32,000 bases of DNA from Candidatus Heimdallarchaeota archaeon B3_Heim (GCA_003144275.1 NJBF01000008.1:60001-92000), one strand, 5' to 3'; numbered from the stretch's first letter, positions 7,917-32,000 are shown. Made by a program: numbers and translations. The notes: a model not told the origin generated them from the letters alone.

Positions 7917-8001
7917 CTTACTAATAACATAAGAAGTCTTCTTTAAACGGAAAGATCATCGAGCAACGAATAACTTTTAATTAAATTGTCAAGCAGATAA
8001 A

Positions 8002-18278: not shown

Positions 18279-18307
18279 GGAATAGCTCCCTTATTCTATC
18301 CAATCCT

Positions 18308-20446
18308 TCAACTTTTTTCACCTGTGGATTCTGTAATATCGCTAGATTTTTCGGGACTCGGAGTCCTCTCATCTGACTCAATGGGCAAATCTAGCGGATC
18401 TTTACTACATTTTCTTCTTTCTAGGCGGATTTTCAATGAGGTCAGCTCCAGAAATATGACGAGGACTATCATAATGACAATACGAGGCATCGCATAAAGA
18501 TCACCTTGAATCCCTTGATAGCAGGAACCTAAGAATAAGCCAAGTATGAGAAGTCGACTGAAATTTCTGAAAAAAATAATTATAATTCCATCAGGTTTCT
18601 TTCGAACAAACTGGAACCATTCAATCACGACTAAAATGAAAATTTGAGCTGTAAGCGCTCCTAACAAATACCAACTCCAAATAGTAAATCCTCCAATCTG
18701 ATACAAATCACCACTATTAATAGAAGCAAAAGAATAAGTTGGAATAGCATATGAACCATCCATACTTGTACCAGTAAGTAATATCAAAAGGAAGAGGAGA
18801 ACCTCGTACACCGAGCCCAATAATAATACGAGTGCAATAACAAAGGCTTTTATGAAAGAAAATACGGGTGTGAGAATTATGTACAAAGCTGAAGCTAGGA
18901 TACTAAGCATTTGATAGGAACCCCTCAAAATTTTATGCAGTTTTGAATCACTCACCTCTCTGGATGGATCCATGGAGGATTGAGACCTTTGCCTCTTAGG
19001 AACAGTCACAATTTCTGAATTAGAAGGAGAGTCCGGGATAAGAGTCTCTAGAATTTCGTGACGTGATGAAACCAAAGCAGGATCTTGACCCAAATATTGT
19101 AGCCCACTAACAATTGATCTTTTTACAGCTAAATGCCTTTGAAAACCAACCGTGGTTTCAAAGAACACGTATGTCAGAATAAGGAGGGGAGTAAAGATAT
19201 ACATACTAGAGTAGGAATAATTGTAAGTATATGCAGTAACCATCATTAAAGTTCGAATCCCAAGTATTCTACCAACCCAAAAACTCACAGTATTCAATTT
19301 ATAGTTGGAATGAGAAACCCCAGCTTCTGAGAAGCTCAAGACGATCATAGCAATTAAAATTGCGCTCGTTATGAACAGATGAATATTTAGTGGACCTATT
19401 AATCTTGAGGTGAAAAAAGAATCTTGAAAAAATCCACTTTGCCACCCATATCCCCAAGGGAAAAGCAAGCTAAATAGTAAAAAAGGCCCCCCGATGGAAA
19501 GTACCAGCTTTTCATATCTGGAATAATATTGAAAATAATCACGCCAATTATGAAATATTTGTTTGAAGTCTGACAAAATTTTACCAGCATCAACTGAATG
19601 GGCAACTCTAATCAGGAATGGAGAAATAGTTCTTATCCAAAAATCAGTTTTTAATTGTCTTTCCAACAATATTTGTAGAACAATTAACAAGGGGAAAAAT
19701 AGGGCAATTCTCCAAGGTAGGGGTAACAACGAGGCTTTAAAAATTAGAACAAGAAATCCTATTCTTGCGATGATAATTAAAAAATCGTCATCCAACTTTC
19801 GCAGAAAACCCTTGGATAATAAGCTTTGTTTCCATCTGTGAATCAGCCATCCTTCGAAGAAAAGGAAATTAAATACCCATAAGGCACCAATGGAGATATA
19901 ACTATCGGTAAAATATTCTACGACATAAAGATAGTAGTGACTTGCACCAATATCTCCAAATGGTCTCGTTGCGACCATTATAATTAGCATTATAAAGGTA
20001 AAAGCAGAGATAACCCTATAGATTGCAAAAAGTTTATATTGTCGTAATTGCTCCAGATATTTACGAGTAGAGGAGGAGAATGTGGGGGAGTCTTTTGATT
20101 TAGAGCCACGAAAGGAAAGTGGTGGCTTCTTTACTGAAGCTTTTTTTGATCCATGTCCTGCCTTGGTCTTATCTAGGTGACTGGTCTGGTCATTTTTTGG
20201 TTCTAAATATTGGTCACATATTTCAGAGGGAGAACCACATTCTTCCATCGCTTCTAATACGTTCGAATGTGAAATGGTTTCCCCTGTGGCAAGCTCATTG
20301 CTTCGAATAAACATAAAATCATTGATTTCATTTAGTAGTGAGTCTATTTCATTTGGATGCATTTTACAGGTTGATTTCAAGTATTCTTCAACATTATCGA
20401 TATACGAGCGGATTAACACCTTGGCATCGTTATTAATTTTCTTCAT
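18308..20446 (-). CDS. HAAS-domain multi-pass membrane protein (PadR partner)
   Basis: N-terminal IRSYIDNVEEYL...EIDSLLNEI...MEECGSPSEICDQY matches the HAAS helical domain; many TM helices follow. Starts 5 nt after the PadR stop. Confidence 0.75.
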   Translation of the reverse strand: MKKINNDAKVLIRSYIDNVEEYLKSTCKMHPNEIDSLLNEINDFMFIRSNELATGETISHSNVLEAMEECGSPSEICDQYLEPKNDQTSHLDKTKAGHGSKKASVKKPPLSFRGSKSKDSPTFSSSTRKYLEQLRQYKLFAIYRVISAFTFIMLIIMVATRPFGDIGASHYYLYVVEYFTDSYISIGALWVFNFLFFEGWLIHRWKQSLLSKGFLRKLDDDFLIIIARIGFLVLIFKASLLPLPWRIALFFPLLIVLQILLERQLKTDFWIRTISPFLIRVAHSVDAGKILSDFKQIFHNWRDYFQYYSRYEKLVLSIGGPFLLFSLLFPWGYGWQSGFFQDSFFTSRLIGPLNIHLFITSAILIAMIVLSFSEAGVSHSNYKLNTVSFWVGRILGIRTLMMVTAYTYNYSYSSMYIFTPLLILTYVFFETTVGFQRHLAVKRSIVSGLQYLGQDPALVSSRHEILETLIPDSPSNSEIVTVPKRQRSQSSMDPSREVSDSKLHKILRGSYQMLSILASALYIILTPVFSFIKAFVIALVLLLGSVYEVLLFLLILLTGTSMDGSYAIPTYSFASINSGDLYQIGGFTIWSWYLLGALTAQIFILVVIEWFQFVRKKPDGIIIIFFRNFSRLLILGLFLGSCYQGIQGDLYAMPRIVIMIVLVIFLELTSLKIRLERRKCSKDPLDLPIESDERTPSPEKSSDITESTGEKS

Positions 20447-20451
20447 ATAAT

Positions 20452-20868
20452 TTACCTCTGTTCACGCTTAAAGGATTGAATTTCATTATACCAGCCTTGA
20501 ATAGAATCATGGTAAGTAAAATACGTTTGAATCATTGATTCGATCATCAATTCACCAGCAGATGTAATAGTATAAATACGACGGGGCATACCTGGAGATT
20601 CTAAATCTTCTGCAATTATTGATGTAATTAAACCATCTTTTTCCATTCGATTGAGCATTGGATAAACAGTACCAGCCTTTAACGGAATATTAGATTCCCT
20701 AAGCATTTTAATCAACCCATAACCGTGTGCCTCTTCAGTACGTAATCGGATAAGCAATAAAATCATCAATTTTAGTAATCCACGGCGAAAATCACGTTCC
20801 CAATCTCGGATTATTTTGGGAGTATCTCTGGAATTCTCATCTGTGTTATCGGTATTCTCAGTTGACAG
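20452..20868 (-). CDS. PadR family transcriptional regulator (N-terminus extended beyond the ORF track; possible CTG start)
   Basis: HGYGLIKML, LKAGTVYPMLNRMEKDGLI, PRRIYTITSAG. The in-frame upstream sequence encodes WERDFRRGLLKLMILLL, the conserved PadR first helix, and stays open to CTG at 20868. Confidence 0.85.
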   Translation of the reverse strand: MSTENTDNTDENSRDTPKIIRDWERDFRRGLLKLMILLLIRLRTEEAHGYGLIKMLRESNIPLKAGTVYPMLNRMEKDGLITSIIAEDLESPGMPRRIYTITSAGELMIESMIQTYFTYHDSIQGWYNEIQSFKREQR

Positions 20869-20943
20869 CTTTCATGCCCCGAGGACCTTTATTGCTCGAA
20901 ATATCCTACTGTGAATCAGTTCAAAGAATCAATAGCTGAACTT

Positions 20944-20970
20944 GCACAGCTATATATATAGGTGTACCTA
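20944..20970. promoter_or_regulatory. TATA-containing imperfect palindrome upstream of padR (candidate promoter/operator)
   Basis: GCACAGC-TATATATATA-GGTGTAC (24-bp dyad with 4 mismatches) overlaps TAGGTGTACCTA (12-bp dyad with 2 central mismatches). Confidence 0.35.
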
Positions 20971-21131
20971 CAGGAATCCGTTCTCCATTCTTCCCAGTCT
21001 ACTCGTGCTCTTAACCGTTCTACCTTCTTATTTATGTTTATCTAGGCTCGAACGCGCTCCAAATCTACATAGTTCTACTTCTGGTATAAGATTCTCTTCT
21101 CGTCAAGTATAGATTTACCTATTTTCTCCAA

Positions 21132-21761
21132 CTACCGACGTGCCTCAAAATACTTTTTTCTCTGATTTACTATTGACTCAAAAATTATTTTTTCCTCCAT
21201 ACCACTGGCGACTCCTCTTTTTACTTCCTCAAAATATCGATAATTGTTCAAATCGCGATCGTGAGCATTATAAAACATGATCCAAGTTTGGCTATTGATT
21301 ATTGCTATTGGAATTTGATATTCTGATTCCCAATCCCATTTATGATACTCTCCTGAATGGGACATCCATACTAACTCGTGTAGCGATGACGGTCTATATT
21401 TCCATGTAAGGGCTAGTCCTTCTCGATAATTCTCGCCAAGACAATTACTAAGGTTAATCTCGTAGTCATCATCTACAATTACGGTAATATAGAACGTATT
21501 CTCTTCATTAACATACCACGAGACAACAGGATAGATATGGTCAATGTCAATATCTTCCATATAGTCCCACTTATTTATAATAACGGTTTCAATAAAAAGG
21601 CGTGGAATAACATACATATAATGTTCTTCTTTCAATTCCAATAATTGACCTAACTCAGTTTCGGTTTTCACGTTCATAATATCTTTATCGTATTGAATAA
21701 AAGTGTAAAGTGATCCTACTTTCTCGTAACCATCACGACTTTTTATATACATTCTGTTCAT
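21132..21761 (-). CDS. Hypothetical protein, probably a fragment of a longer interrupted gene (frame continues across three TAGs to TGA at 20916)
   Basis: 209-aa ORF. Downstream in frame: RR*LEKIGKSILDEKRILYQK*NYVDLERVRA*ININKKVERLRARVDWEEWRT. Confidence 0.55.
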   Translation of the reverse strand: MNRMYIKSRDGYEKVGSLYTFIQYDKDIMNVKTETELGQLLELKEEHYMYVIPRLFIETVIINKWDYMEDIDIDHIYPVVSWYVNEENTFYITVIVDDDYEINLSNCLGENYREGLALTWKYRPSSLHELVWMSHSGEYHKWDWESEYQIPIAIINSQTWIMFYNAHDRDLNNYRYFEEVKRGVASGMEEKIIFESIVNQRKKYFEARR

Positions 21762-22096
21762 CCTTTACCTGAAGTGATAGATATTAGATAATCCAACTTT
21801 CATCTTATTTCTTAGATTTATTCTTTTTAAGACTTTCTTTCACCGTTTTATTGTTTCAAAACACAGAATACAAGGTGAGGACTCCATCACATTAAAAACA
21901 TCGATCAGGTGAACCTTCGACTTATTGAAGTAGTTACGGTTGAAATTGTAGTAGTTGTTTTCCTTACTCTTATTTTTGGTTCAATCCAGATCTTTTTGAT
22001 TGTAATAATTTCTCCGTTGCGTTCATCTTAGATATATATGGGTATGACAAAGTAGTGTCCGAAAACCAAGAACGAACCCAACTGTTTGAAGCAGAT

Positions 22097-23785
22097 TTAG
22101 AGAAACCTTAGCCTTTTTTGAAGGTCCTCCCACGATCCTCCTCCAAATTTAAGCAGGTATTCAGTAAGTTTAACGAGAAGAGGTTCCTCATCCAGAATCC
22201 AGAGTAAAAGAGGAGACAGTTTTCCCCATTCAGATTCGTAATCGATACCAGGAAAAAAGCAATGAATAGTTAGATAGACAGCTGTATTATCAAAAGCCGC
22301 TCTAAAAGAAGTTCTTCTACCTGATTGTGGGGGACGATTCGATAAAATCTGCATGATATGATGGGACAGAGTGCGATCATCAGTTGCGGTCTCAAAGTAA
22401 AGGAGAGAAAATTCCTTGGCTAAGGTTTCCCCTTCCATGGTAGAGACCACAGGTTGGGGTGTACAGACTCCAATTAAGGCAATGGGCCGTTCATTTAAAG
22501 GAGTGGATGTTGGAAGAGTCTGAAATTTTTCTTTTAGGAGATTAAAGGATGGTCGATCACTTTTATCGAAAATAATTAGTACTCCGCCCACCTTTTGTAA
22601 AGCAGAATTAAGAGTGTCTCCAGAAAGGGATTTCAGACTTATCTGAAACAGGAGACTTACAATAAGATCTTTTATCTTAACTTTTTTTATTTCATTCTCA
22701 GAAATCCATGCTTCCCAATCCCGAAGTTTGATCCCCCTGCGATAGAGCTCTAGGAGGGGCCCCCAGTTCTCAGGAGTCAGCGGATTTCCTCGGACATATA
22801 GCACCTGCAGATGCTTGAGCTGAGTTAAGGTTGGCGGAAGAGATAACAATTTATTATCTTTCACGCGCAATGCGGACAGGTGGATAAGCGAATGTATCTC
22901 CTCTGGGAGCTGAGTCAATTGATTGGCATTCAGGTTTAAATTCCGAAGATTCGACAGAATTAACACAGGATAGGGGAATACCAAGAAACGATTCTTTTGC
23001 AAGTACAAGTTCCGAAGGTGATGAAGGTTTCTGATTGACTCAGGAAGAATGGTTAGGGAATTACTCGTGATTGAGAGTTTTTGAAGAGTTTGTAATCCTC
23101 CGAGGGTCGGGGGAAGCATTTTTAAGTGATTATTATCCAACGATAAATTTTGTAAATTGGGAAGAGTTCCGAGGGAGTCAGGAAGCGAGCTCAGCTGGTT
23201 ATACCGACACCAAAACTCACGGAGCTGTGTCAATCCCCCTATAGTCTTCGGTAGAGTGGTTAAGTCGTTATGATCTAAATCCAACCGTGTTAATTGAGTC
23301 AGATTCCCGAATGAGTCAGGTAAAGATCTTAACTGACAACAAGTGAGTTTTAGACTTTTCAGGTGCGCAAGACTCCCGAAAGAGATTGGGAGAGTCTGAA
23401 GCTCCTGTTTTTCTATGAATAAGCCAACTAGATGTTGGTCTTTGATGTCTAGATGAATCATGCCCGAATTATATGGGGTATCCATCTGTCCTCCCAGGTC
23501 CAACAATGCATAAGCTTCGTGTTGTACCAAAACTGAGTACAGCCAATAATTTCTCTGATACTTTGCATCCAGTTGCAAACGGATACTGTCCTCTGCGGTT
23601 CCAGGATCTACATATCCCACAATCTCAAACCAGCCCGTAGAGCATAACACTCGAATTAATTCTTCCGCAACTGCAGTTTCGAGTTTAAAAAAGTCAAGAA
23701 ACTCGTCAAATGTTAGTGATAACGTTCCCCCGGAATTATGAAATTCCCTCTGGATTTTTTGTAGTAGTTCCTGCCCACTCACCAT
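22097..23785 (-). CDS. Leucine-rich-repeat protein with N-terminal winged-helix-like segment and C-terminal degenerate small-GTPase-like region
   Basis: About 9-10 23-aa LRRs (L..LP.S.G.L..L..L.L..N.). GGVLIIFDKSDRPSFNLLK...RPIALIG...VVSTMEGETLAKEFSLLYFET resembles the second half of Rab/Ras domains. Confidence 0.88.
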   Translation of the reverse strand: MVSGQELLQKIQREFHNSGGTLSLTFDEFLDFFKLETAVAEELIRVLCSTGWFEIVGYVDPGTAEDSIRLQLDAKYQRNYWLYSVLVQHEAYALLDLGGQMDTPYNSGMIHLDIKDQHLVGLFIEKQELQTLPISFGSLAHLKSLKLTCCQLRSLPDSFGNLTQLTRLDLDHNDLTTLPKTIGGLTQLREFWCRYNQLSSLPDSLGTLPNLQNLSLDNNHLKMLPPTLGGLQTLQKLSITSNSLTILPESIRNLHHLRNLYLQKNRFLVFPYPVLILSNLRNLNLNANQLTQLPEEIHSLIHLSALRVKDNKLLSLPPTLTQLKHLQVLYVRGNPLTPENWGPLLELYRRGIKLRDWEAWISENEIKKVKIKDLIVSLLFQISLKSLSGDTLNSALQKVGGVLIIFDKSDRPSFNLLKEKFQTLPTSTPLNERPIALIGVCTPQPVVSTMEGETLAKEFSLLYFETATDDRTLSHHIMQILSNRPPQSGRRTSFRAAFDNTAVYLTIHCFFPGIDYESEWGKLSPLLLWILDEEPLLVKLTEYLLKFGGGSWEDLQKRLRFL

Positions 23786-23844
23786 AGGAGTCTCAGCTCT
23801 ACCTCGCTAATCAAAAATTTTTTTGTTAGAGAACCTTATCATCG

Positions 23845-24060
23845 CTAATCTCGTCTCCCTTTAGCTCGCCTTATGAGACAGAATAACCGGGGTTCTCGTT
23901 GATATGCGCCTTCCGAGGTAATATTCAATGGTTCCCAGCCCTCTTCAGCATATTCATTGATTAACTTCTCAAATCGTTCAATGCTTTGTGGATTTTGTGT
24001 TTCGGGTTGAGTAAGTATCTTATATTCCCATTTTGACATTATTTCATTGACTTGTTTCAT
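23845..24060 (-). CDS. DUF4177-like small protein
   Basis: KWEYKIL...FEKLINEYAEEGWEPL...LFCLIRR; ATG overlaps the upstream TGA (ATGA). Confidence 0.75.
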   Translation of the reverse strand: MKQVNEIMSKWEYKILTQPETQNPQSIERFEKLINEYAEEGWEPLNITSEGAYQREPRLFCLIRRAKGRRD

Positions 24061-24698
24061 GATATTTTCCCCTCAATGTTGCCATTGCTCCTGAAAACAC
24101 GTAACTGCTGATGATACAGATGCAACTCCCCATCCAACATCCAGCTCATAACGGCATCCACCACTTGAATTATCGAAGCAGTGTAAACTGATGTTTTGTA
24201 GTACACGATAATATTTTTCCAAATGTCTTGCTTTGTTCCCGATAACATGTACTCTTCTATAGTATGCTGAACTTCGAGTTGTATTTGCTTCGGTACTAAG
24301 TCCACTTTATACTGAAAGATGAATACACGCGCGTGGGGCTATTCTGCATTAGGTGATTCAGAGCTAAGTCAAAATAGTATTTCACTCTAGAGAGATTTTT
24401 TATTTACATAGAATCGAGGACGAAGACATATCCTTTAACGTTTGAAAATATATGGAGGGTTAATGCTCCTGTGAAACGGTCCAAAAATGAAGTAGCTTCC
24501 CCTAGGTCAAAAACCACTATTTTTCTGTGCCCCAGAGTAAACGTGTACCTCTCATAGTCGATAGTCGGAGCGTAATTTTCATATTTTTTTTGGCATCTGT
24601 TTGCGTTGCATAAATATCCTAATAGTGGATTTTCCTGAATTTGATAAACCCATTAGCAGTAATTTTGGTATCTTGTGTTTTTTCAATTCTTTTCCCAT
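24057..24698 (-). pseudogene. Rag/Gtr1-like (Arf-related) small GTPase pseudogene
   Basis: ATG 24698: KLLLMGLSNSGKST (G1). +1 frameshift in an A8 run (24584-24591). YAPTIDYE (G2), IVVFDLGEA (G3, degenerate), IFSNVKGYVFVLDS, TAA at 24404-24406, second frameshift near 24325, FIFQYKVD (G4), YKTSVY (G5). The track ORF 24057-24305 is the C-terminal piece. Confidence 0.85.
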
Positions 24699-24733
24699 TC
24701 TTTCAGTTTTCCTCAGCTGAAGAAAGACCTATT

Positions 24734-25705
24734 TCATAATCCTGCTCTCAGTTTACGCCCCTCTTCGCGATCATAGTCCAAACAGAACCCACACAGTTCA
24801 TCCGCATCGAGATCACGACAAAGGCAGCATAAAGTATTGACGAAGGACTCACAAATCCCCTGACATTCCGTACACGTCATGAGGGAAATGTCAACTCTAT
24901 GGCGTTGAAAATTGTTTGGAGGGGAAATAGTCGGTAACCGAATGCCAGCAGGACGGCCTTGCTGGACGGTGCGCTGAATCAGCTGTCTCTCCTCCAGCAC
25001 TTGCAGATATGCAGTAAATGTAGAACGTTCACGGGCACCTACGGCTAGTTCATCACATAAAAAGAGATATTGCCGACGAACTGCGGGACTAGTGACAATC
25101 TATGGAGAAGATTCCTCCACCACCTGGGCAATGCTTAGTAATACGAGCTGTTGATGAAAGCTAAGCTACTGAATCCGGAGTTCGGGGGAAATTCCCGCAA
25201 ATTTATGCTGACTGCGATGAACGTGGACACGATTCACCTGAGGGTCGGCCTCAGTTTCTGCCAATTTCGCGGCACGCCAGAGGAGCTCAATCACCGAGTA
25301 CGCATCCGAGGAGGATTGCGAAATTAACCGTAACGCAGGACCTTCGATGGTCGCCTGATTTAAACCCTGATGCGCTCGTTCACGGACGATCTGATACAAT
25401 TACTGCTCGATATAGGGCGAGAGGGGGGTAAATTTACTCTCTTCTGAGGGGAGTACACTCTCGGCAAGCTGTTGTCCGCTCGCACGGGAATCTGTCACCA
25501 GAAGCAGATTAAGTTTCTTTAACCCCCGAGTAGCAGGGGATGAGGCATCGATTGCTTCTTGCGCAGGAGTTAGAAGACAGAGAAATTGTGTGAGTTCCTC
25601 GGTAGCTACTCTCTCTGCATCATTCAGAACAATCAGGTAGTTCCGGTTGTCCTGTTCCAACAGATCCAGAAGTTCCGATGTGAGACGTTCCCTCGAAAAC
25701 GTGAA
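24734..25705 (-). pseudogene. cdc6: Cdc6/Orc1-family replication initiator relic, 5'-truncated, with three in-frame stops
   Basis: One continuous frame: YLIVLNDAE (degenerate Walker B), SPYIEQ*LYQIVRERA, SSDAYSVIELLWRAAKLAE...VHV (lid), RIQ*LSFHQQLVLLSIAQ, SP*IVT, YLFLCDELAV...TFTAYLQVLEERQLI...GRPAG (winged helix). Stops: TAA 25400-25402, TAG 25166-25168, TAG 25100-25102. Confidence 0.85.
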
Positions 25706-25857
25706 TCACTCCAGTTTAGATCAAACAATTACAAGTATCCTTTGATTGCAGAATTCTAGCATTTGTTCTATGTTTTTCCTATATACTAGAAATTCAATTT
25801 ATCCACAATTTCATATTTATTTGGAGGGTTTTAGATAACCGTTCAAGCTCGGTATCA

Positions 25858-27348
25858 TTAGGTATCAATGAGTTCAATTTTCTCTCCCACAAGGAACCCC
25901 GCGAAGTCTACGTCGCTATCCTCCCAAAAAATCTCAGTGTCGAAAGTTTGGATGACTTTTTCCAAATAAAATAGATAATAATACCTGTCATATTTTAAGA
26001 TCATCCGTTTTTCATGTGGAGAGAGATCCAGATATTTATTAATATCTGATGGGCCAATATTAAGAATATCCGACACTATTTTAATCTTGTTTGGAAATTT
26101 TGAGAAATGAAAAGCAATATTGTAAATCCTTGACTTTAGAATCATTTCGTCAGAAATTTCATTACTAAGGGAAGTATCCCTAAGTTTTAACCATTCTTTA
26201 AAAACTTCAGAGGGGAAGTACGGATCAAAATCCGAATCATATCCTATAAGAATATTTTTGCTTGTTCGGAAATATTTAGTCATATTATGGAATCTCAAAT
26301 GAGCAATGATCCGCGCAATTTCACTTTTGAGATCCTCGAATTTTTGTTCTATAGTCAGCTCGTTTACTTTATTTATATCTGGAAATCGAAATGGGCTAAT
26401 CACCTTATCATACCTTCTTTCTTTCGTCTTACTTTTGAAATGTGAGTGGACTCCCAAATAGATTGTTGCCAGGCTAAGATAGACAAAAGATAAAAAGAAC
26501 AGCGTACTAGCTTCCACTCCAATATAAAATCCTAGAAATTCAGACCTGAAGAAAGTTATGGCAAACCAGATCCCAAATACATTTATTATCAATAAAATGA
26601 ACGCCATTTCAGATACTTGGTTAACTCTCTTCATTATTCCTTCTTTCTCCTCCATCATGGTAGAAAGCCTTCTTAGCTTTAATTTATTCCAGTGTGTAAC
26701 TATCAGTGCTAGTTCTTTTGGTATCACATCCTCAGAAAGACTTTCTGCTTCAATGTTTTCAACTAGCTTCTTAACTTCAACTTCAGTATTATCTTCCCTC
26801 TTTATTTTTATCAACGTAAATAGAACTTCGTATATTGCAGTAAAACCTAATGTTTTGCTAAGTTTTTCATCTTGATGTAGTTTAATTTTATCTGTAACAC
26901 TTCCCCGAAAGAATTTTGTTTCATCATTTACTCTGTAAAAATATCTACCCCCGTACCAAATTCCTTTTGGACTCAGAGGGATATGGATTAGAATAAATGG
27001 GTTTATTATTCTTGGAAGATGAATGACCTCGATTTTTAAATTAAAGGGTGTTCCAAATGAGTCTGTGGCAATCTGATTGATCTTCTTGGTCCATTCTTTA
27101 ATATCAGTGATTCCTTGCCATGGATCCGCATTTTTTTCTTCCACACCAAGAACTATCATACCAGAAGCAGAATTTGCCATAGCAGCCATTGTCTTTGCTA
27201 AATTTTTTGGTTTTATCCTCCCACTCTTGAAATCTAAATAACTAGTTTCCCCTCTCTTCATATAGTGCTCAAGTGCTTCCTGAATCTGTTCGTGTGTTAA
27301 AAATCCCAATAACCCTTTTTCTGGATATTCTCTCTCTCTTTTTGCCAT
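25858..27348 (-). CDS. Schlafen/AlbA_2-domain protein with two central TM helices and a C-terminal soluble domain
   Basis: GETSYLDFKS, LAKTMAAMANSASGMIVLGVEE, GI, ILIHIPLSPK, FYRVNDET are AlbA_2 motifs; hydrophobic AFILLIINVFGIWFAITFF and TLFFLSFVYLSLATIYLGV. Confidence 0.85.
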   Translation of the reverse strand: MAKREREYPEKGLLGFLTHEQIQEALEHYMKRGETSYLDFKSGRIKPKNLAKTMAAMANSASGMIVLGVEEKNADPWQGITDIKEWTKKINQIATDSFGTPFNLKIEVIHLPRIINPFILIHIPLSPKGIWYGGRYFYRVNDETKFFRGSVTDKIKLHQDEKLSKTLGFTAIYEVLFTLIKIKREDNTEVEVKKLVENIEAESLSEDVIPKELALIVTHWNKLKLRRLSTMMEEKEGIMKRVNQVSEMAFILLIINVFGIWFAITFFRSEFLGFYIGVEASTLFFLSFVYLSLATIYLGVHSHFKSKTKERRYDKVISPFRFPDINKVNELTIEQKFEDLKSEIARIIAHLRFHNMTKYFRTSKNILIGYDSDFDPYFPSEVFKEWLKLRDTSLSNEISDEMILKSRIYNIAFHFSKFPNKIKIVSDILNIGPSDINKYLDLSPHEKRMILKYDRYYYLFYLEKVIQTFDTEIFWEDSDVDFAGFLVGEKIELIDT

Positions 27349-27426
27349 GATGTTTATCTATAGGGTAACCATTTTTAAGATTTCCTTGCTTTATTTAGTC
27401 TATTATCTGGATTAATTCGCCTTCAT

Positions 27427-28017
27427 TTGGAAGAGATGAATAAAACGAATATGTCATCTAAAAAAACACATAAATTATTCGTCTGTTCTGATTCTGAATT
27501 ATTAAGCTTCCTCTCAACCTTTTCAAGTAAGAAAATTGGTAAGAATACTCTTGAGCTATTAATCCAGTTTGAAGAGAAATTCCAAGAAAACGAACTGTAT
27601 CCTTTTTGTCCATTTCTCAGAGTTCCTACAACTAATGGCGAATCTAGTTGGATGTTCCTACCAGAATACTTTTTCACCTTTCTTAGTGAAGTATGGGATA
27701 ATTTCACAGAATTAATCTTGAAGGATACACGTCAAAAGGGAGATATCTTTGAATCAGAATTGAGACAAATCTTCACAAACGCGGGATTCAATGTTTGGAA
27801 GAAGCACAAAATACAAAATTTGATGAATTACATTAAACGTGATGGAACTGGTGATATTGATTTAATTATTCAAGATGAATCGACCGTATTATGGATACAA
27901 GCGAAGTCAGTATATTATAATCGAAAATCATATCAGACTGTTCTGAGAAAGGGTAGGAAACAATTGGTTTCTGCATATGAAACGTTTAGGAGGAATCAAA
28001 AAACATTTTCGTATTAA
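27427..28017 (+). CDS. PD-(D/E)xK (Mrr/NERD-like) nuclease domain protein, possibly a truncated remnant
   Basis: KGDIFESELRQIF...GDIDLIIQDESTVLWIQAKS...KGRKQL. Start is unclear; the frame is open for about 17 codons upstream without an ATG. Confidence 0.65.
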   Translation: MEEMNKTNMSSKKTHKLFVCSDSELLSFLSTFSSKKIGKNTLELLIQFEEKFQENELYPFCPFLRVPTTNGESSWMFLPEYFFTFLSEVWDNFTELILKDTRQKGDIFESELRQIFTNAGFNVWKKHKIQNLMNYIKRDGTGDIDLIIQDESTVLWIQAKSVYYNRKSYQTVLRKGRKQLVSAYETFRRNQKTFSY

Positions 28018-28518
28018 TAAAGTTGAAGTAAAGGGGGACCTAGAGAGTTATGGCTATTTTAGTAAAGCAGACTATCAGAAGTATATCGAAGGCATCACAT
28101 CGTAAAGTTAGATGATTCTATCTTAATAACTATTGAATATAGCTAACCAAGATAGTTCACCTATAAATATCAAACATTAATAGAGAGGGAGAGAGAAACA
28201 CAAAGTGAAACCACTAGATTATATTACAAAAAGAAAATAAAAAAAAATAATTTCGATAAAATAGTCTTTGTTGTTTTACCACCCCTTTGAAAACCTCTAG
28301 CCCAATAAAAAAGGGTATTTCTTTTATTTATTATTAATTTAGTGTCAATAGTGTCTTTCGATTAGAAAAATCCAAATCATCCGTATTCTGTTTGCTGAAA
28401 GAACTAAAAAAATAAAAGAATATTGGATTTGAGTGATTGTGGTTTTAGCGAATCTTCCATTGACCACTAAACTTAGTTTTATCTTTTAATCTTTGTTATC
28501 AATCGTTCAGTGGGATTC

Positions 28519-29001
28519 TTATTGATTAGAATTAATCTCCTCAATTGCTTGATTAGGAGTTAAGACCCTAATACTATATCTAGAAGAATTTCCATTTTCA
28601 TCTGGATTAAGTTTTTCGATTAATCGCATATCTGCCGTGATCAATGTAGCTCTAGAGACATAAGCAAGTCTAATAAGATATTTGTCATCTTCAGGTAATT
28701 CACTTTCATCTACTAGATGATGTTCTTCGTCATTCCAAATCTGAAATTATGCCTTATTCGGGAACAACCTAAAAAGTAAACCAGTTAATATACTCGCATT
28801 TGATTTATTTCTTTCCTTTAATATTGAGATATGCTTGTAATAATGCTTCAGCAATTCATTGCTTACAAGTATCGAATCACACTGATATCCTATATCAATG
28901 AAGATTTTCAAAGCAATCGTGCTATCTTGATTTTGATGATCCACTAAATTAGAAGCATGCCTTAAGAGACATTCATCAAGTATGTAGTTTCTCCCTGTCA
29001 T
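28519..29001 (-). pseudogene. PIN-domain ribonuclease gene interrupted by one in-frame TAA (28747-28749)
   Basis: MTGRNYILDECLL...LFPNKA*FQIWNDEEHHLVDESELPEDDKYLIRLAYVSRATLITADMRL...IRVLTPNQA. The N-terminal D, central DD and ITAD match the PIN acidic residues. The start overlaps the end of the ATPase gene. Confidence 0.8.
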
Positions 29002-30265
29002 TTTCTTTCCCTTCTGGTTTAACACCAACTAGTACATCAATGTAACGCTTATATTGTTCTATATTTGCTTCAAAAAAATCAGGTAATCCTTCTTTTAATC
29101 GTCCATTTTTATCAAATTCTAATTCTTTTCCATAACAACCATTTCTGTCGTCCTTAAAGTGATAGAGAGCTAGTTCATGTTTCTTCAATTCTCCTAAACC
29201 GATCTTAGTTAATGCATGGTAGACTATGTGTTCACTATGAGTAGTGATAAGCAATCTTTTATTACAGTCAAGTGCTTCTCTAATGAAAACTTCGATTAGT
29301 TTTGATTGAGCACGAGGATGCAAATGTATCTCTGGTTCTTCTATAATAATTATGCTTTCAGGAGAAGCAAGAGCTAGTTGAGTTAACAAGAAAGCAAGCT
29401 GATTTAGCCCAAATCCTTCATTTAAAATTGATATATTAGGTATTTGTTCCCTTTTTTTTCTATCAACTTGCTTAACACTCTCTAGCGTAATTTTTTTCCC
29501 AGGAAATAATTTATCCTTTAAAGGCTTTTTTAAAATTTGATTACACCAAGAAGAAACAATTTCTAGAATCTCTGGTTTGTAAGCAAGAGTACTAATCCAT
29601 TTTGAATTTATTATTTCAAATCTCTCATTAGAGGGAGTTAAAAGGTTTTCAACTGGGTTATCTTCAAGAAATTCAAAGGGTTTTAAAGTTCCCCTTATGG
29701 AAGGAACATACCACAAAGGAAATAGATCATCTTCAATTATACTAAATGATGATGATAATTCTCTCCTGGTTTGGTTTAATACCCGTCTCTCCTCACCGGA
29801 TGAACTACTCGAAGTTATGTCAAATGGTTTTCCGAATTTTTTCGTTGGAGATATACTAATTCTTGTATTTTTACTGTAATGTAGTTGTTCGGGATTTACT
29901 TTAGCGTCACTTCCTTTTATGATACCATAAGGAGGTATCTTCAATTCTGCAAAGTAAGAAATTTTTCCGTTGCTTATTGTGATTTCTTCTTCGTACTGAA
30001 GCTTTTTCTTCCTTCCTTTCAATGTGAATTCAATAGGTATGGTTTGATCTCTGTTAAAAAATACATCTTCCAATTCACCAAATCTAATATTTTCCCCATC
30101 AATTACCAAGGTTTCTGATTCTAATGACTGTTTCAACAATAACATAGCTTGACCAATAGAAGATTTTCCAGACCCATTAGCACCTATGAGGATTGTAATC
30201 GGTTTTAATTCAATATTTGCTTCAACAATCCCTTTAAAATATTTAATACCAAGATATTCCAGCAA
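28976..30265 (-). CDS. AAA_15/AAA_21-type (ABC-like) ATPase with DUF3696-like C-terminus
   Basis: Walker A GANGSGKSS, NEGFGLNQL signature region, Walker B IIIIEEPEIHLHPRAQ, LLITTHSEH, ELEFDKNGRL...PDFFE. TTG start with AGGAG SD. Confidence 0.92.
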   Translation of the reverse strand: MLEYLGIKYFKGIVEANIELKPITILIGANGSGKSSIGQAMLLLKQSLESETLVIDGENIRFGELEDVFFNRDQTIPIEFTLKGRKKKLQYEEEITISNGKISYFAELKIPPYGIIKGSDAKVNPEQLHYSKNTRISISPTKKFGKPFDITSSSSSGEERRVLNQTRRELSSSFSIIEDDLFPLWYVPSIRGTLKPFEFLEDNPVENLLTPSNERFEIINSKWISTLAYKPEILEIVSSWCNQILKKPLKDKLFPGKKITLESVKQVDRKKREQIPNISILNEGFGLNQLAFLLTQLALASPESIIIIEEPEIHLHPRAQSKLIEVFIREALDCNKRLLITTHSEHIVYHALTKIGLGELKKHELALYHFKDDRNGCYGKELEFDKNGRLKEGLPDFFEANIEQYKRYIDVLVGVKPEGKENDREKLHT

Positions 30266-30388
30266 ATCTATCTCTCCTTTTGCTTAAGTGTTTAGTTCAA
30301 TTTAAATAAAATAAATCAATATATCAAAATAATGAATTACATCATATCTACAAATTTAATTACTAATTGTTTCTATCTTTTTTCAATA

Positions 30389-31441
30389 TTAAAAATACTC
30401 GTCTAAGGTTGAATCACCTTTTTTTGTTTCTTCTTTCTTCTTTTTCTTTCTTCTTTCTTGTTTCCATCTTGCTGTAAGTTTACAATAGATCTGTGCCATC
30501 GATGATCGGTGACGATGAGTTTTGAAAGGAGCAATCAGCATTGAATACGAACTTATCAGAATGGTGTCATTGTAAACCTGATTTTCCGTTGGATCCCTTA
30601 TTATGATCTGTTTTGATTTTAGAAACACTTCTAAACACTGTTTTAGGTGATTTGGTTTCGGAAATGGAGGAGAAGTTATACCAGTAGCCCCTTCTTCCAC
30701 CATATTTTTGAATTTCTCATATAACGTTCGTAAAGTGAATTCAAATGGCTCTAAATCCCAAGCACCTTTTCGAAAAATTTTAGGAGTTAATAATAATTGT
30801 TGAATTCGCTCACAAGTATAAGGGATGTTTGCATTTCTTAGAAAAAGAGGCCAATGATAGTATGAAAGGATGATTTCAGGACCAATTACTTTTATTTGCA
30901 TAAACATATTAGAAATATTTTTCTTCAACGTTTTTTCCTTCAAAAAGAAGTGATAACAATCAGAATTTGGATTAAATTCCCAGAGAAGGATTCCGAAATT
31001 TCTAGAAAAAAAAGAATTACATTCAGTATGTTTCGAAACGTATTCTTCTTTAAAATCTTGAAATGCACCATAATCTTTTTTAGGTAGGACAAATACAACG
31101 TTTTGTTCTAGAAACGGTAAAACAATACCATAGAGGTCATTATACAACAGTAAATCCTTGATTTGTTTCATACCATAATTCTCAGAAAATGAAGCCACTA
31201 TCTCAATTATAACAGCAGTACGAGTATCTTTTGAAATATAAAGGAGATCTGGAGTCCTTATTCCGACCGTCTTTTTGTCATTCATAAATTGATAAATATT
31301 TGTTTCAATCCCTCGGAATTTAAAATCATTTTTCTTAATTATAGGAAGCATTTCTAAAATTATGCAGAAATAAACATTAATAGACTCGTTATAGATTTTA
31401 TACTCCTTTTCGAGCTCTTCCCAAAGTTTACGTTTTCCCAC
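30389..31441 (-). CDS. Hypothetical protein with PD-(D/E)xK-like motif and C-terminal PIP-box-like tail
   Basis: RTPDLLYISKDTRTAVIIEIVAS; basic tail followed by DSTLDEYF. GTG start with GAGGGG SD. Confidence 0.7.
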   Translation of the reverse strand: MGKRKLWEELEKEYKIYNESINVYFCIILEMLPIIKKNDFKFRGIETNIYQFMNDKKTVGIRTPDLLYISKDTRTAVIIEIVASFSENYGMKQIKDLLLYNDLYGIVLPFLEQNVVFVLPKKDYGAFQDFKEEYVSKHTECNSFFSRNFGILLWEFNPNSDCYHFFLKEKTLKKNISNMFMQIKVIGPEIILSYYHWPLFLRNANIPYTCERIQQLLLTPKIFRKGAWDLEPFEFTLRTLYEKFKNMVEEGATGITSPPFPKPNHLKQCLEVFLKSKQIIIRDPTENQVYNDTILISSYSMLIAPFKTHRHRSSMAQIYCKLTARWKQERRKKKKKEETKKGDSTLDEYF

Positions 31442-31461
31442 CTATACCCCTCGCTTTTGAA

Positions 31462-32000
31462 TTATGTTGAAACGGAAAGAGGTTTTATATGCCAGGGAGT
31501 CCCAACACAGGAGTGAATAGATTCGATTAAAGCGGTGAGAGATGTATTATCAAAGTTCTGGTCGGCAGAAATACGAATAATATTTCTTACAGCAATTAAA
31601 ACAAACAAACTACCTGTTTTAGGATCAAAGACATTCAAATGAAGAAAAGGATTTCCTGAATGAATAGTGGTTGAAAGAAATCGTTCTTCAAGGTCTTTAG
31701 ATAAAGAATCTATTATTTGATTGAATTCTTCCTTTATAAGAGGAGCTTCAAATTCCAGTTCTAATACCTTACCTTGTGGGGAACCCATTACAGAAAAAGT
31801 AATTGGTTGTATATCATATTTTGATTTGTTTTCATTTCTTTGAGCAGTAATGGCGTTGCTAAAAATTGTAAGAAAGTCGTTAATACTCCCTGTCATTATA
31901 CCAATAGTTCCATCTTGAAAAATTCTTAATTTCAGAGGGGGAACGCCTATAGGAATTTCTAGAGATACATAACGCCATTTATTTCGTTTTTTATCAAACC
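31462..32000 (-). CDS. Hypothetical protein, C-terminal part; gene begins beyond the window
   Basis: The frame of the track ORF 31462-31896 stays open to the window end (FDKKRNKWRYVSLEIPIGVPPLKLRIFQDGTIGIM...). It ends 20 nt before the next gene. Confidence 0.75.
   Translation of the reverse strand, partial: FDKKRNKWRYVSLEIPIGVPPLKLRIFQDGTIGIMTGSINDFLTIFSNAITAQRNENKSKYDIQPITFSVMGSPQGKVLELEFEAPLIKEEFNQIIDSLSKDLEERFLSTTIHSGNPFLHLNVFDPKTGSLFVLIAVRNIIRISADQNFDNTSLTALIESIHSCVGTPWHIKPLSVST

What the first reader, a model, noticed from the sequence alone, without database searches (positions are those of the whole stretch)
28519..32000. Candidate four-gene defence operon: unknown - PD-(D/E)xK-like - AAA_15-type ATPase - PIN
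Seen: four co-oriented genes, with gaps of 20 nt and 123 nt and an overlap between ATPase and PIN. Established: AAA_15/21 ABC-like ATPases partner with nuclease effectors in anti-phage systems (PARIS AriA with TOPRIM AriB, Septu PtuA with HNH PtuB, GajA/OLD types). Inference: here the partner is a PIN RNase, and two uncharacterised upstream genes (one with a PD...EIxAS core) may be sensor or extra effector subunits. I do not recognise this composition as a named system.
Basis: partly seen in the sequence, partly recalled or inferred. Interest (0 to 1): 0.75.

Follow-up and report, generated by a model that had tools for sequence, protein, structure and literature searches.

The report
Two unrelated gene pairs, not one operon
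The four neighbouring genes are two separate two-gene cassettes lying side by side in an archaeal defence island: a divergent, already broken copy of a known ATPase-plus-PIN anti-virus system, and a rare pair of unknown function that is predicted to form a complex.

Summary
The four co-oriented minus-strand genes, their 20-nt and 123-nt gaps and the ATPase/PIN overlap are real. The genes do not travel together.

**Genes 1-2 (337-339 aa and 350 aa).** This pair recurs as a pair in three other Hodarchaeales/Hodarchaeota loci, with no ATPase or PIN next to it. DNA similarity to the window stops at the cassette ends. By predicted structure and language-model features the two proteins resemble the uncharacterised MJECL33/MJECL32 pair, in the same gene order. 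Gene 2 has a restriction-endonuclease-like N-terminal fold, but its motif reads PD...E-I-V, without the lysine. A complex model supports binding (score 0.80, best control 0.00).

**ATPase plus PIN-like gene.**
- The pair recurs alone in 4 other Asgard genomes, several metagenome contigs and 30 of 80 bacterial loci. None of these carries genes 1-2.
- The ATPase best matches PADLOC NsnB (1.4e-49).
- The partner has a PIN fold (Z 8.6) and is homologous to the PIN protein of HEC-03 (hhalign probability 96%). HEC-03 is a published, lab-tested ATPase+PIN anti-phage system.
- In this window the PIN gene carries a TAA at a nearly invariant lysine codon, so this copy is probably dead.

This scan flagged both kinds of cassette before on other DNA. 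The four-gene system is not supported, and interest is modest.

The parts
31462..32000 (-). Gene 1 (cassette A, first gene). It is 337-339 aa and continues to 32475/32481 beyond the window end. It is an MJECL33-like partner protein of unknown function.
   Evidence: The ORF was read on the contig. Homologues of 335-338 aa at 40-64% identity lie directly upstream of every gene-2 homologue. There is no Pfam or PADLOC hit. The Atlas gives feature score 0.93 and TM 0.64/0.61 to clusters that carry PF25924 MJECL33. The predicted interface with gene 2 lies mainly in residues 226-311.
30389..31441 (-). Gene 2 (cassette A, second gene), 350 aa. It has an N-terminal restriction-endonuclease-like domain with motif P64-D65...E80-I81-V82 (no lysine) and a helical C-terminal half. 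It is MJECL32-like.
   Evidence: Only 3 homologues were found among 5.8 billion proteins. Two carry Hodarchaeota/Hodarchaeales names and one is an unnamed metagenome protein. The AF2 model has pLDDT 77. Weak but consistent PDB matches are XisH, YaeQ and BsmI, at E about 0.03. The best AFDB full-length match is to an uncharacterised protein, E 9.5e-12. The Atlas gives TM 0.60-0.66 to an MJECL32 cluster with two independent models. Invariant residues come from alignment A2.
30266..30388 (-). 123-nt AT-rich spacer between the two cassettes. It holds a TATA-box-like TTTATTTAAAT and a GGAGAG purine run just upstream of the ATPase TTG start.
   Evidence: The sequence was read directly. DNA similarity of gene-1/2 loci to the window ends at the gene-2 stop. 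DNA similarity of ATPase-PIN loci lies within the ATPase and PIN-like genes. A promoter role is inference only.
28976..30265 (-). ABC-type ATPase (cassette B, first gene), 429 aa, intact. Walker A is GANGSGKS, Walker B-like is IIIIEEPE, the H-loop is THSEH, and there is a C-terminal GLPDFFEAN helix (DUF3696-type tail).
   Evidence: Pfam AAA_15 2.2e-27 and AAA_21 6.1e-26. PADLOC NsnB 1.4e-49 over the full length; the HEC-03B model (the ATPase model in PADLOC naming) 2.8e-30, best stretch C-terminal; AriA 6e-30. Motifs come from alignment A5. The closest relatives reach Pfam DUF3696 weakly.
28519..29001 (-). PIN-like partner gene (cassette B, second gene), 160 codons, overlapping the ATPase by 26 nt. 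It is interrupted by an in-frame TAA.
   Evidence: Translation. An intact homologue is 47% identical. The AF2 model of that homologue has pLDDT 82.5. The best matches of its model are almost all PIN domains, Z 8.6-5.0. The family has 258 representatives. It is homologous to the HEC-03 PIN family: hhalign probability 96.3%, E 1.9e-9.
28747..28749 (-). In-frame TAA stop codon inside the PIN-like gene. It sits at the position of a nearly invariant lysine (K87 of the reference homologue).
   Evidence: Searches show the stop. One search aligns it with a lysine of the intact homologue. One search shows that this column is conserved in at least 90% of 73 family members. AAA to TAA is a single base change (inference). 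No reads could be obtained to confirm the base.

Best explanation
The stretch holds two independent, horizontally moving two-gene cassettes. They lie head to tail in a low-GC defence island of a Hodarchaeales (Asgard) archaeon.

**Cassette B (ATPase plus PIN-like gene).** It is a divergent branch of the HEC-03 type of anti-virus system. An ABC ATPase with a DUF3696-type tail is most likely the sensor and holder. It is translationally coupled to a small single-domain PIN-fold protein, the likely nuclease effector, which has three nearly invariant aspartates, one cysteine and one lysine. By analogy with HEC-03 and with the modelled Menshen NsnB-NsnC complex, the ATPase would hold the PIN protein by its C-terminal tails and release or activate it on infection. 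That step is inferred, not shown. In this genome the PIN gene has a stop codon at the conserved lysine, so the cassette is most likely inactive. This is a recent one-step loss, because the rest of the frame and the ATPase are intact.

**Cassette A (genes 1-2).** It is a rare, very divergent look-alike of the uncharacterised MJECL33/MJECL32 pair. The nuclease-fold protein lacks the canonical lysine. It is predicted to bind its partner through the C-terminal halves of both proteins. Its function is untested. A defence or conflict module is the best guess from context.
For: **Separate cassettes**
- Every gene-2 homologue has a gene-1 homologue directly upstream. None has an ATPase or PIN gene downstream.
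- Every PIN-like homologue examined follows an AAA_15/AAA_21 ATPase, and none has genes 1-2 nearby:
  - L008/L009, with DNA, checked with profiles of genes 1 and 2.
  - G084, G006, G059 and G320 (a fragment in G320), also with DNA and the profiles.
  - Three further contigs, judged from the called genes only.
- 30 of 80 bacterial loci with related ATPases have the same PIN-like partner. All 80 have zero hits to profiles of gene 1 or gene 2.
- blastn similarity of gene-1/2 loci to the window spans only L001 4391-6492, which is exactly the cassette. Similarity of ATPase-PIN loci spans only 2544-4240.
- Within the phylum, gene 2 was found in 2 other genomes of 400, one of them a stop-riddled 92-residue match at E 4.6e-5. 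The PIN-like gene was found in 2 others, and these are different genomes.

**Identity of cassette B**
- PADLOC NsnB 1.4e-49 and HEC-03B model 2.8e-30.
- PIN fold.
- Near-invariant D10, C42, K87, D109 and D127.
- The related bacterial ATPase loci also include pairs whose partner is a true HEC-03 PIN protein. All 7 such partners tested match the HEC-03A model, at 2.7e-13 to 4e-40. The one ATPase tested from these pairs matches HEC-03B at 4.1e-128.
- That partner family aligns to the window's family at hhalign probability 96.3%, E 1.9e-9, over 149 columns.
- HEC-03 is a two-gene ATPase+PIN system and both genes are needed for defence (paper).

**Identity of cassette A**
- Atlas features and structure.
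- MJECL33 lies upstream of and overlaps MJECL32 on the M. jannaschii element, the same order as genes 1-2. I assigned the old names from the order of the records.
- Complex model: score 0.80, best of 3 controls 0.00. The mark was reached by 58 of 80 solved complexes and 2 of 110 mismatched pairs. Runs agree in at least 82% of contacts, and partner pLDDT is at least 82.
Against: - No PADLOC model, including HEC-03A and the NsnC models, recognises the window's PIN-like family directly. The ATPase scores better against NsnB than against the HEC-03 ATPase model. Assignment to HEC-03 therefore rests on profile-profile homology and shared architecture.
- The link of genes 1-2 to MJECL33/32 rests on predicted structures and embeddings only. 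hhalign against the M. jannaschii proteins is not significant (probability below 1%). The Pfam models PF25924 and PF27326 were not available to me.
- Contigs of gene-1/2 relatives are short (4-5.6 kb). Absence of ATPase-PIN is shown only for 0.6-3.4 kb downstream.
- The four genes are co-oriented, so read-through transcription in this genome cannot be excluded.
- The TAA could not be checked against reads.
- No function was tested for any gene.
Confidence: 0.78

Rival explanations
1. All four genes form one defence operon, in which genes 1-2 are sensor or extra effector subunits of the ATPase-PIN pair.
For: The genes are co-oriented, with short gaps of 20 and 123 nt. All lie in a low-GC defence island. 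Gene 2 has a nuclease-like fold.
Against: There is no co-occurrence anywhere else. Three gene-1/2 loci lack ATPase-PIN, and about 40 ATPase-PIN loci lack genes 1-2. DNA similarity breaks at the 123-nt spacer. The spacer carries its own TATA-like element and a purine run before the ATPase start. HEC-03-type pairs work as two genes.
Confidence: 0.04
2. Cassette B is a reduced Menshen system (NsnB plus NsnC) that has lost NsnA, rather than a HEC-03 relative.
For: The best PADLOC hit of the ATPase and of its closest relatives is NsnB, 1e-49 to 3e-54, over the full length. In Menshen the NsnB DUF3696 tail is modelled to hold a PIN-like domain of NsnC. That domain's best PDB match is the same PAE2754 protein found here (PMC12065111).
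Against: - There is no ParB/DUF262 (GmrSD_N) gene anywhere in the 94%-complete genome. No conserved co-oriented upstream partner appears in the ATPase-PIN loci whose upstream genes I examined.
- The partner is a single domain of about 155 aa with nearly invariant Asp residues. NsnC, by contrast, is a catalytically dead PIN domain plus a C-terminal nuclease.
- The partner family is homologous to the HEC-03 PIN family.
- The pair is conserved as a pair in more than 35 loci.
Confidence: 0.1
3. The TAA in the PIN-like gene is an assembly or consensus error, or a minority variant. In that case cassette B is functional in the living population.
For: There is a single stop and no frameshift. The downstream 75 codons are still well conserved, 47% identity overall to an intact homologue. 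The ATPase is intact. The genome is a 103-contig assembly at 94% completeness.
Against: The base stands in the assembly as given. Loss of a toxic effector by a nonsense change is common in defence islands. The same island holds other decayed genes: a cyclase fragment, a NERD-like fragment and a broken Cdc6.
Confidence: 0.15
4. Cassette A is not a defence system. It would be a maintenance, addiction or DNA-processing module of a mobile element, or a regulator built on a dead nuclease fold.
For: The canonical lysine of (D/E)xK is replaced by an invariant valine in all four relatives. One relative lies beside a TnpB-like gene. The flanks differ in every locus, as for mobile cargo. No PADLOC hit.
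Against: Here the pair lies among defence genes. The M. jannaschii MJECL33/32 pair lies between VapBC, an ATP-dependent endonuclease, EVE and PIN genes and a type I restriction system. The strong conservation around the motif (EIVASFSENYG) argues for a working site.
Confidence: 0.3

Closest known systems
HEC-03 (Hma-embedded candidate 03; Payne et al., bioRxiv 10.1101/2024.01.29.577857; PADLOC-DB v2 models PDLC04147 and PDLC04148)
   Same: It is a two-gene system. An ABC ATPase is followed by, and overlaps, a small VapC-like PIN protein, and both genes are required for defence. The window's PIN-like family aligns to the HEC-03 PIN family at hhalign probability 96.3%. The ATPase hits the HEC-03 ATPase model at 2.8e-30.
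   Different: - The PADLOC HEC-03 PIN model does not detect the window's family (0 of 73 members).
- The best stretch of the ATPase match covers only its C-terminal third, and the ATPase scores higher on NsnB.
- This copy has a stop codon in the PIN gene.
- The host is an Asgard archaeon.
- Naming differs between sources. The paper calls the ATPase HEC-03A and the PIN protein HEC-03B. The PADLOC models are labelled the other way round.
Menshen (NsnA-NsnB-NsnC; Millman et al. 2022; domain analysis in PMC12065111)
   Same: The NsnB-type ABC ATPase with a DUF3696 tail is the best PADLOC match (1.4e-49). The downstream partner has a PIN-like fold, as does the N-terminal domain of NsnC.
   Different: There is no NsnA (ParB-DUF262) in the locus or the genome. 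The partner is a single domain that keeps conserved aspartates, whereas NsnC is an inactive PIN domain plus a C-terminal nuclease.
MJECL33 / MJECL32 of the Methanocaldococcus jannaschii large extrachromosomal element (Pfam PF25924 and PF27326; function unknown)
   Same: - The adjacent pair has the same order: the partner protein first, then the nuclease-fold protein.
- Atlas feature scores are 0.93-0.95. TM is 0.60-0.67 to clusters that carry these Pfam families.
- The only hhalign segment puts gene 2's TPD...E motif on MJECL32's TPD...ECK motif.
   Different: - No significant sequence similarity.
- Genes 1-2 are shorter (339/350 aa against 405/438 aa) and do not overlap (20-nt gap).
- The lysine of ExK is valine.
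- The family seen by sequence has only four members. The three other than the window's are two from Hodarchaeota/Hodarchaeales and one unnamed metagenome protein.
   Same: They share the ATPase superfamily. PADLOC hits are AriA 6e-30, GajA about 1e-15 and PtuA about 1e-13. They share the general logic of an ABC ATPase paired with a nuclease.
   Different: There is no TOPRIM, HNH or OLD domain in or next to the ATPase. These models score far below NsnB and the HEC-03 ATPase model.

Membership tests
HEC-03 | ABC ATPase recognised by the HEC-03 ATPase model (PADLOC PDLC04148) | tested here: inconclusive
   The hit is 2.8e-30 in two stretches, the best at residues 267-401 of the protein. NsnB scores 1.4e-49 over the full length. 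A true member, the L048 ATPase, scores 4.1e-128 over the full length.
HEC-03 | PIN partner recognised by the HEC-03 PIN model (PADLOC PDLC04147) | tested here: not met
   No hit for the window's protein, its pieces or any of 73 family members at E <= 0.01. All 7 partners from the sister clade hit the model at 2.7e-13 to 4e-40.
HEC-03 | PIN partner homologous to the HEC-03 PIN family | tested here: met
   hhalign of 22 partners of that clade (7 of them tested against PADLOC, all HEC-03A-positive) against alignment A4 gives probability 96.3%, E 1.9e-9 and 149 aligned columns. The conserved Asp, Cys, Lys and T-x-D positions align.
HEC-03 | Two-gene architecture: the ATPase is followed by an overlapping small PIN gene, with no conserved third gene | tested here: met
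   The overlap is 26 nt here, and 4-11 nt overlaps or short gaps occur in relatives. The flanking genes differ or lie on the other strand.
HEC-03 | Both genes intact (both are required for defence) | tested here: not met
   There is an in-frame TAA at 28747-28749 in the PIN-like gene. The ATPase is intact.
HEC-03 | Protection against phage | not testable with these tools
   It needs expression of an intact orthologue and a virus challenge.
Menshen | NsnA with ParB-DUF262 and ParBDB domains encoded upstream of NsnB | tested here: not met
   PF03235 gives no match in the whole genome at E <= 0.01, while the control genomes are positive. The upstream genes 1-2 have no Pfam or PADLOC hit.
Menshen | NsnB-type ABC ATPase with a DUF3696 tail | tested here: met
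   PADLOC NsnB 1.4e-49, protein 1-405 on profile 1-339 of 345. The tail motif is conserved. DUF3696 is reached weakly by relatives.
Menshen | NsnC built of an inactive PIN-like domain plus a C-terminal nuclease domain | tested here: not met
   The partner is a single domain of 150-177 aa with three nearly invariant Asp residues. There is no NsnC hit in PADLOC.
PIN domain superfamily | PIN fold | tested here: met
   The AF2 model has pLDDT 82.5. VIA-align Z is 8.6 (rmsd 3.6, 130 aligned) to HARP RNase P and 8.4 to a VapC. The 40 best rows are almost all PIN domains, and the next rows, at Z 4.7 and below, are unrelated folds. The top 50 Foldseek rows are PIN-like proteins, at weak E-values (best 0.016).
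PIN domain superfamily | Conserved acidic active-site residues (canonically D-E-D-D) | tested here: inconclusive
   D10, D109 and D127 are at least 90% conserved. No conserved Glu or fourth acid was identified. Their clustering in space was not checked.
PIN domain superfamily | Match to a Pfam PIN-clan model above its threshold | tested here: not met
   There are only scattered sub-threshold hits: PIN_3 1.1e-4, PIN_9 3.5e-3, NYN 3.8e-4, PIN 0.059 and DUF4411 0.083.
PD-(D/E)xK nucleases (gene 2) | Restriction-endonuclease-like fold | tested here: met
   The N-terminal 170 aa or so match XisH, YaeQ, BsmI, SfsA and PaqCI (Foldseek E 0.03-0.14, probability up to 0.95). They also match McrC, PDDEXK_7, PDDEXK_11 and YhcG clusters (TM by row up to 0.61). 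The matches are weak individually and consistent together.
PD-(D/E)xK nucleases (gene 2) | Catalytic motif D...(D/E)xK | tested here: not met
   P64-D65 and E80 are invariant, but position 82 is an invariant Val in all four relatives. MJECL32 has E-C-K at the aligned place. A lysine supplied from elsewhere (K12, K57 and K122 are invariant) is not excluded.
MJECL33/MJECL32 pair | Two adjacent co-oriented genes, the partner first and the nuclease-fold protein second | tested here: met
   The order is gene 1 then gene 2, with a gap of 3-20 nt in all four loci. The M. jannaschii pair has the same order and overlaps.
MJECL33/MJECL32 pair | Structural likeness to both families | tested here: met
   Gene 1: TM 0.64/0.58 and 0.61/0.64 to clusters with PF25924. 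Gene 2: TM 0.62/0.66 (Atlas model) and 0.60/0.65 (my AF2 model) to a PF27326 cluster.
MJECL33/MJECL32 pair | Match to Pfam PF25924 / PF27326 models | not testable with these tools
   PF25924 is not in the local Pfam copy, and I did not query PF27326. hhalign against the single M. jannaschii sequences is not significant.

The most novel reading that the evidence does not exclude
Genes 1-2 are a Hodarchaeales branch of an undescribed two-protein conflict system of the MJECL33/MJECL32 type, which occurs in both Archaea and Bacteria. In it the partner protein and a restriction-endonuclease-fold protein form an obligate complex. In this branch the canonical catalytic lysine has been replaced, so the complex either cuts by a rearranged site or acts by binding rather than cutting.
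Probability: 0.4. Interest if true: 0.6.

Novelty: new member of a known kind. Interest (0 to 1): 0.3.

Why it matters
The main value is corrective. Co-orientation inside a defence island is not evidence for a shared system. The comparative test splits this 'four-gene system' cleanly in two.

Three smaller points remain.

1. A sizeable sister clade of HEC-03 exists: 258 representatives at 50% identity, in Asgard archaea and many bacterial phyla. The HEC-03 and Menshen models of PADLOC-DB v2 did not recognise its PIN-like partner, so annotation pipelines would probably report at most an orphan NsnB-like ATPase.

2. The Asgard copy shows a one-step inactivation at a conserved lysine. That residue is worth mutating in tests of the family.

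3. Genes 1-2 add a very divergent archaeal branch, with a confident predicted heterocomplex, to the uncharacterised MJECL33/32 pair. This scan has flagged that pair repeatedly as a candidate new defence module.

Tried and rejected
- **Reads.** A search for public sequencing runs that hold 28300-29400 listed none. The TAA could not be checked, and no RNA holder was listed.
- **Family scans of genes 1 and 2.** Pfam and PADLOC gave nothing usable. PF25924 is not in the local Pfam library.
- **Sequence link to the M. jannaschii pair.**
  - tblastn of gene 2 against plasmids found no match.
  - tblastn of MJECL32 against plasmids found only itself.
  - hhalign of A2 against MJECL32 and of A1 against MJECL33 was not significant.
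- **Profile search with the gene-1 alignment.** It found only the same four proteins.
- **The search for related loci with the PIN-like alignments A4 and A3.** I used the ATPase alignment instead.
- **Insertion signatures around cassette B.** No flanking direct repeats were found, only two short intragenic chance pairs. No tRNA gene was found.
- **PADLOC PDC-M11A.** It matches 14 of 73 PIN-like members, but only on positions 3-76 of a 486-position model, as seen in the one hit examined. I rejected it as the family: it is a longer protein with a PIN-like N-terminus.
- **Recoding of TAA.** I considered and rejected it. The same gene ends with TAA, the ATPase ends with TGA, and the other three genes read normally under the standard code.
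- **PARIS, Septu and Gabija.** I rejected them because their models score far lower and no TOPRIM or HNH partner is present.

Full report
**Observation.** The window is G000:C4:60001-92000 of a 3.95-Mb, 103-contig assembly with 36% GC. The closest protein relatives are named Candidatus Hodarchaeota/Hodarchaeales, so the host is an Asgard archaeon. Four genes lie on the minus strand:
- Gene 1 runs from 31462 to 32481 on the contig (339 aa from a TTG, 337 aa as on record). It is cut by the window edge.
- Gene 2 is 30389-31441 (350 aa).
- The ATPase is 28976-30265 (429 aa).
- The fourth frame of 160 codons is 28519-29001.

The fourth frame has one in-frame TAA at 28747-28749. The last 6 kb of the window is low in GC (0.31-0.33, against 0.41-0.45 at 22-26 kb).

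**Do the four genes belong together? Genes 1-2.** Gene 2 has only three relatives among 5.8 billion proteins, at 36-52% identity. Two are named Hodarchaeota/Hodarchaeales and one is an unnamed metagenome protein. On all their contigs a 335-338-aa gene lies directly upstream, and it is homologous to gene 1 at 40-64% identity. A profile search with gene 1 finds the same loci and no others.
- Downstream of gene 2 these contigs carry opposite-strand genes, small ORFs or a TnpB-like gene. None carries an ATPase or PIN gene.
- blastn similarity between these loci and the window covers L001 4391-6492 only. That runs from 11 nt before the gene-1 start to the gene-2 stop.

**Do the four genes belong together? 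ATPase and PIN-like gene.** The only close relative of the fourth protein (47% identical, intact, 166 aa) follows and overlaps a 418-aa AAA_15/AAA_21 ATPase. The gene upstream of that ATPase lies on the other strand.
- Among 400 genomes of the phylum, the PIN-like gene or a fragment of it follows a related ATPase in G084, G006, G059 and G320. None of these loci has a match to profiles of gene 1 or gene 2.
- Gene 2 occurs in two other genomes of the 400: a sister species, and a different genome with only a stop-riddled 92-residue match at E 4.6e-5. Neither has the PIN-like gene.
- More distant family members sampled from metagenomes show the same ATPase-then-PIN arrangement.
- In 80 bacterial loci found with the ATPase alignment, 30 have a 104-183-aa downstream partner that matches the PIN-like profile. 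None has a match to gene 1 or gene 2.

The stretch holds two cassettes, and the join lies in the 123-nt spacer. The spacer is AT-rich and holds a TATA-like TTTATTTAAAT and a GGAGAG run before the ATPase start. A promoter role is inference only.

**Cassette B: the ATPase.** It is intact, with Walker A GANGSGKS, a GFG signature-like motif, IIIIEEPE, THSEH and a conserved C-terminal GLPxFFEAN helix. Pfam gives AAA_15 and AAA_21. PADLOC ranks NsnB of Menshen first (1.4e-49, full length). Next comes the model labelled HEC-03B (2.8e-30, best stretch C-terminal), then AriA (6e-30). Gabija and Septu models rank far lower. The ATPases of the related pairs behave the same way.

**Cassette B: the partner protein.** No Pfam or PADLOC model reaches significance on it. 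Other evidence does place it:
- An AlphaFold model of the intact homologue is confident (pLDDT 82.5).
- Its best structural matches are almost all PIN domains. Z is 8.6 to the HARP RNase P, 8.4-7.6 to VapC toxins, and lower to Nmd4, SMG5/6-type and Nob1 domains. Below the 40 best rows, unrelated folds begin at Z 4.7 (Foldseek).
- An exhaustive profile search finds 258 cluster representatives, nearly all single-domain proteins of 145-165 aa.
- In a 73-member alignment D10, A17, C42, K87, D109, D127 and L130 are at least 90% conserved.

**Which known system is cassette B?** The Menshen paper (PMC12065111) describes three proteins:
- NsnA: ParB-DUF262 plus a DNA-binding domain.
- NsnB: the ABC ATPase with a DUF3696 tail.
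- NsnC: an inactive PIN-like domain plus a C-terminal nuclease. The NsnB tails are modelled to clamp the PIN-like domain.

Here there is no DUF262 gene in the whole genome. The partner is a single domain that keeps conserved aspartates. The locus therefore fails two of the three defining features of Menshen.

HEC-03 (bioRxiv 10.1101/2024.01.29.577857) is a two-gene system of an ABC ATPase and a VapC-like PIN protein. It protects E. coli, and both genes are needed. Among the 80 bacterial loci, another set of ATPases carries 155-197-aa partners that my PIN-like profile missed.
- All seven of these partners that I tested hit the PADLOC model labelled HEC-03A at 2.7e-13 to 4e-40.
- The one ATPase I tested from these pairs hits HEC-03B at 4.1e-128.
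- An alignment of 22 such partners matches the window's family by hhalign with probability 96.3%, E 1.9e-9, over 149 columns. The conserved Asp, Cys, Lys and T-x-D positions align.

Cassette B is therefore a sister clade of HEC-03 with the same architecture. None of the PADLOC HEC-03 or Menshen models detected its PIN-like partner. Note the naming: the PADLOC labels A and B are the reverse of the paper's text.

**The stop codon.** The TAA aligns with K87 of the intact homologue, which is one of the nearly invariant columns. AAA to TAA is one base change. The rest of the frame is conserved and the ATPase is whole. The simplest reading is a recent nonsense mutation that disarms the effector. The stop truncates the protein before D109 and D127. 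I could not check the base against reads. An assembly error or a polymorphism remains possible, at about 15%.

**Cassette A.** Neither protein has a Pfam or PADLOC match.
- *Gene 1.* The ESM Atlas places it next to clusters that carry PF25924 (MJECL33) and PF27341, with feature score 0.93, 205 of 256 shared features and TM 0.64/0.61.
- *Gene 2, whole length.* The Atlas places it next to clusters that include PF27326 (MJECL32), with feature score 0.94-0.95 and TM 0.62/0.66. My own AF2 model (pLDDT 77) gives the same result: TM 0.60/0.65 over 275 residues. It also matches uncharacterised full-length AFDB proteins, best E 9.5e-12.
- *Gene 2, N-terminal domain.* The first 170 residues or so match restriction-endonuclease-fold proteins: XisH, YaeQ, BsmI, SfsA, PaqCI, McrC and the PDDEXK_7, PDDEXK_11 and YhcG families. 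Each match is weak, but together they are consistent.
- *The M. jannaschii pair.* On the extrachromosomal element, the two hypothetical genes that by record order are MJECL33 (405 aa) and MJECL32 (438 aa) overlap and stand in the same order as genes 1-2. They lie between VapBC, an ATP-dependent endonuclease, EVE and PIN genes and a type I restriction system.
- *Sequence similarity.* None is significant. The single segment hhalign reports puts gene 2's TPD...E-I-V on MJECL32's TPD...E-C-K. The lysine of (D/E)xK is thus an invariant valine in all four Hodarchaeales-type proteins, inside a strictly conserved EIVASFSENYG block.
- *Complex model.* A model of genes 1 and 2 supports binding. The score is 0.80, 0.80 and 0.70 in three runs, and the best of three controls is 0.00. 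The mark was reached by 58 of 80 solved complexes and 2 of 110 mismatched pairs. Contacts agree in at least 82%, and partner pLDDT is at least 82. My own shallow alignments were used, so the counts hold only roughly. The interface joins the most conserved, C-terminal part of gene 1 (226-311) to the C-terminal half of gene 2.

**Mechanism and what is shown.**
- *Shown:* two independently distributed gene pairs; the folds; the homologies; the conserved residues; the stop codon.
- *Inferred for cassette B:* the ATPase oligomer holds the PIN protein through its DUF3696-type tails and frees or activates it on infection, leading to RNA or DNA cleavage. This is by analogy with HEC-03, Menshen models and PARIS-like systems. 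In this genome it is non-functional.
- *Inferred for cassette A:* a heteromeric complex of a sensor or regulator (gene 1) with a nuclease-fold DNA-binding subunit (gene 2). It acts in defence or another genetic conflict. Catalysis is uncertain because the lysine is missing.

**Novelty and earlier notes of this scan.** The scan had already met both cassette types on other DNA: the MJECL33/32 pair in 11 findings, and DUF3696-type ATPase plus PIN pairs assigned to HEC-03 in many. I reached the same two assignments from PADLOC, the papers and the Atlas before I read those notes, and I tested them here. The in-frame TAA had also been noted on this window. Three things are new here:
- the four-gene reading is refuted;
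- an Asgard branch of each cassette is identified;
- the HEC-03 sister clade escapes the PADLOC models.

I file the finding as a new member of a known kind, of modest interest.

Noticed in passing
beyond the window end: L001 7258-11806 (window coordinates 33258-37806): A divergent plus-strand cluster starts 1.2 kb past the window. It holds an 83-aa fragment that matches a PADLOC oligonucleotide cyclase (2.9e-9), an 838-aa SMC/Rad50-like ATPase that best matches LmuB of Lamassu (3.3e-31), and a 525-aa AAA+ protein. Another first-reader note covers it.
   Followed up: partly
window 25858-27348 (-): A 496-aa protein has an N-terminal Schlafen/AlbA_2 domain (Pfam 1.2e-12) and no PADLOC match.
   Followed up: partly
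window 27427-28017 (+): A 196-aa ORF just downstream of the PIN-like gene, on the other strand, weakly matches the PADLOC viperin-associated NERD model (5.1e-5, profile positions 388-458 of 542). It is probably a leftover fragment of a longer defence gene.
   Followed up: no
L029 (G059:C285) 4526-8735: In a sister species, a 36%-identical ATPase-PIN cassette sits between a complete N6/N4 DNA methylase gene and a 137-aa methylase fragment (profile positions 135-220). The cassette may have landed in or beside a restriction-modification locus.
   Followed up: no
L033 (JGI 3300031587 contig, 42.9 kb) 1692-9656: An ATPase-PIN pair whose PIN protein clusters with one from Candidatus Njordarchaeum guaymaensis lies between a phage portal gene, an NYN gene and a DpnII restriction-methylase pair. 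It may ride on a virus or provirus.
   Followed up: no
L071, L075, L078, L080-L082, L102, L113 (Nostoc and other cyanobacteria): A subset of the ATPase loci has a 368-388-aa gene that overlaps the ATPase start by 4 nt, and a 312-329-aa gene 3 nt after it. The sizes and spacing fit canonical three-gene Menshen. This is judged from sizes only; the domains were not checked.
   Followed up: no
PADLOC-DB v2 models PDLC04147 / PDLC04148: The model labelled HEC-03A (159 positions) matches the PIN proteins, and HEC-03B (458 positions) matches the ATPases. The preprint text calls the ATPase HEC-03A and the PIN protein HEC-03B. The two are easy to confuse when citing.
   Followed up: yes
L115 (M. jannaschii pDSM2661_1) 12149-30945: The presumed MJECL33/32 pair lies in a dense run of conflict genes: VapBC, an ATP-dependent (OLD-like) endonuclease with a partner, an EVE domain protein, a PIN protein and a type I restriction-modification system.
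   Followed up: no
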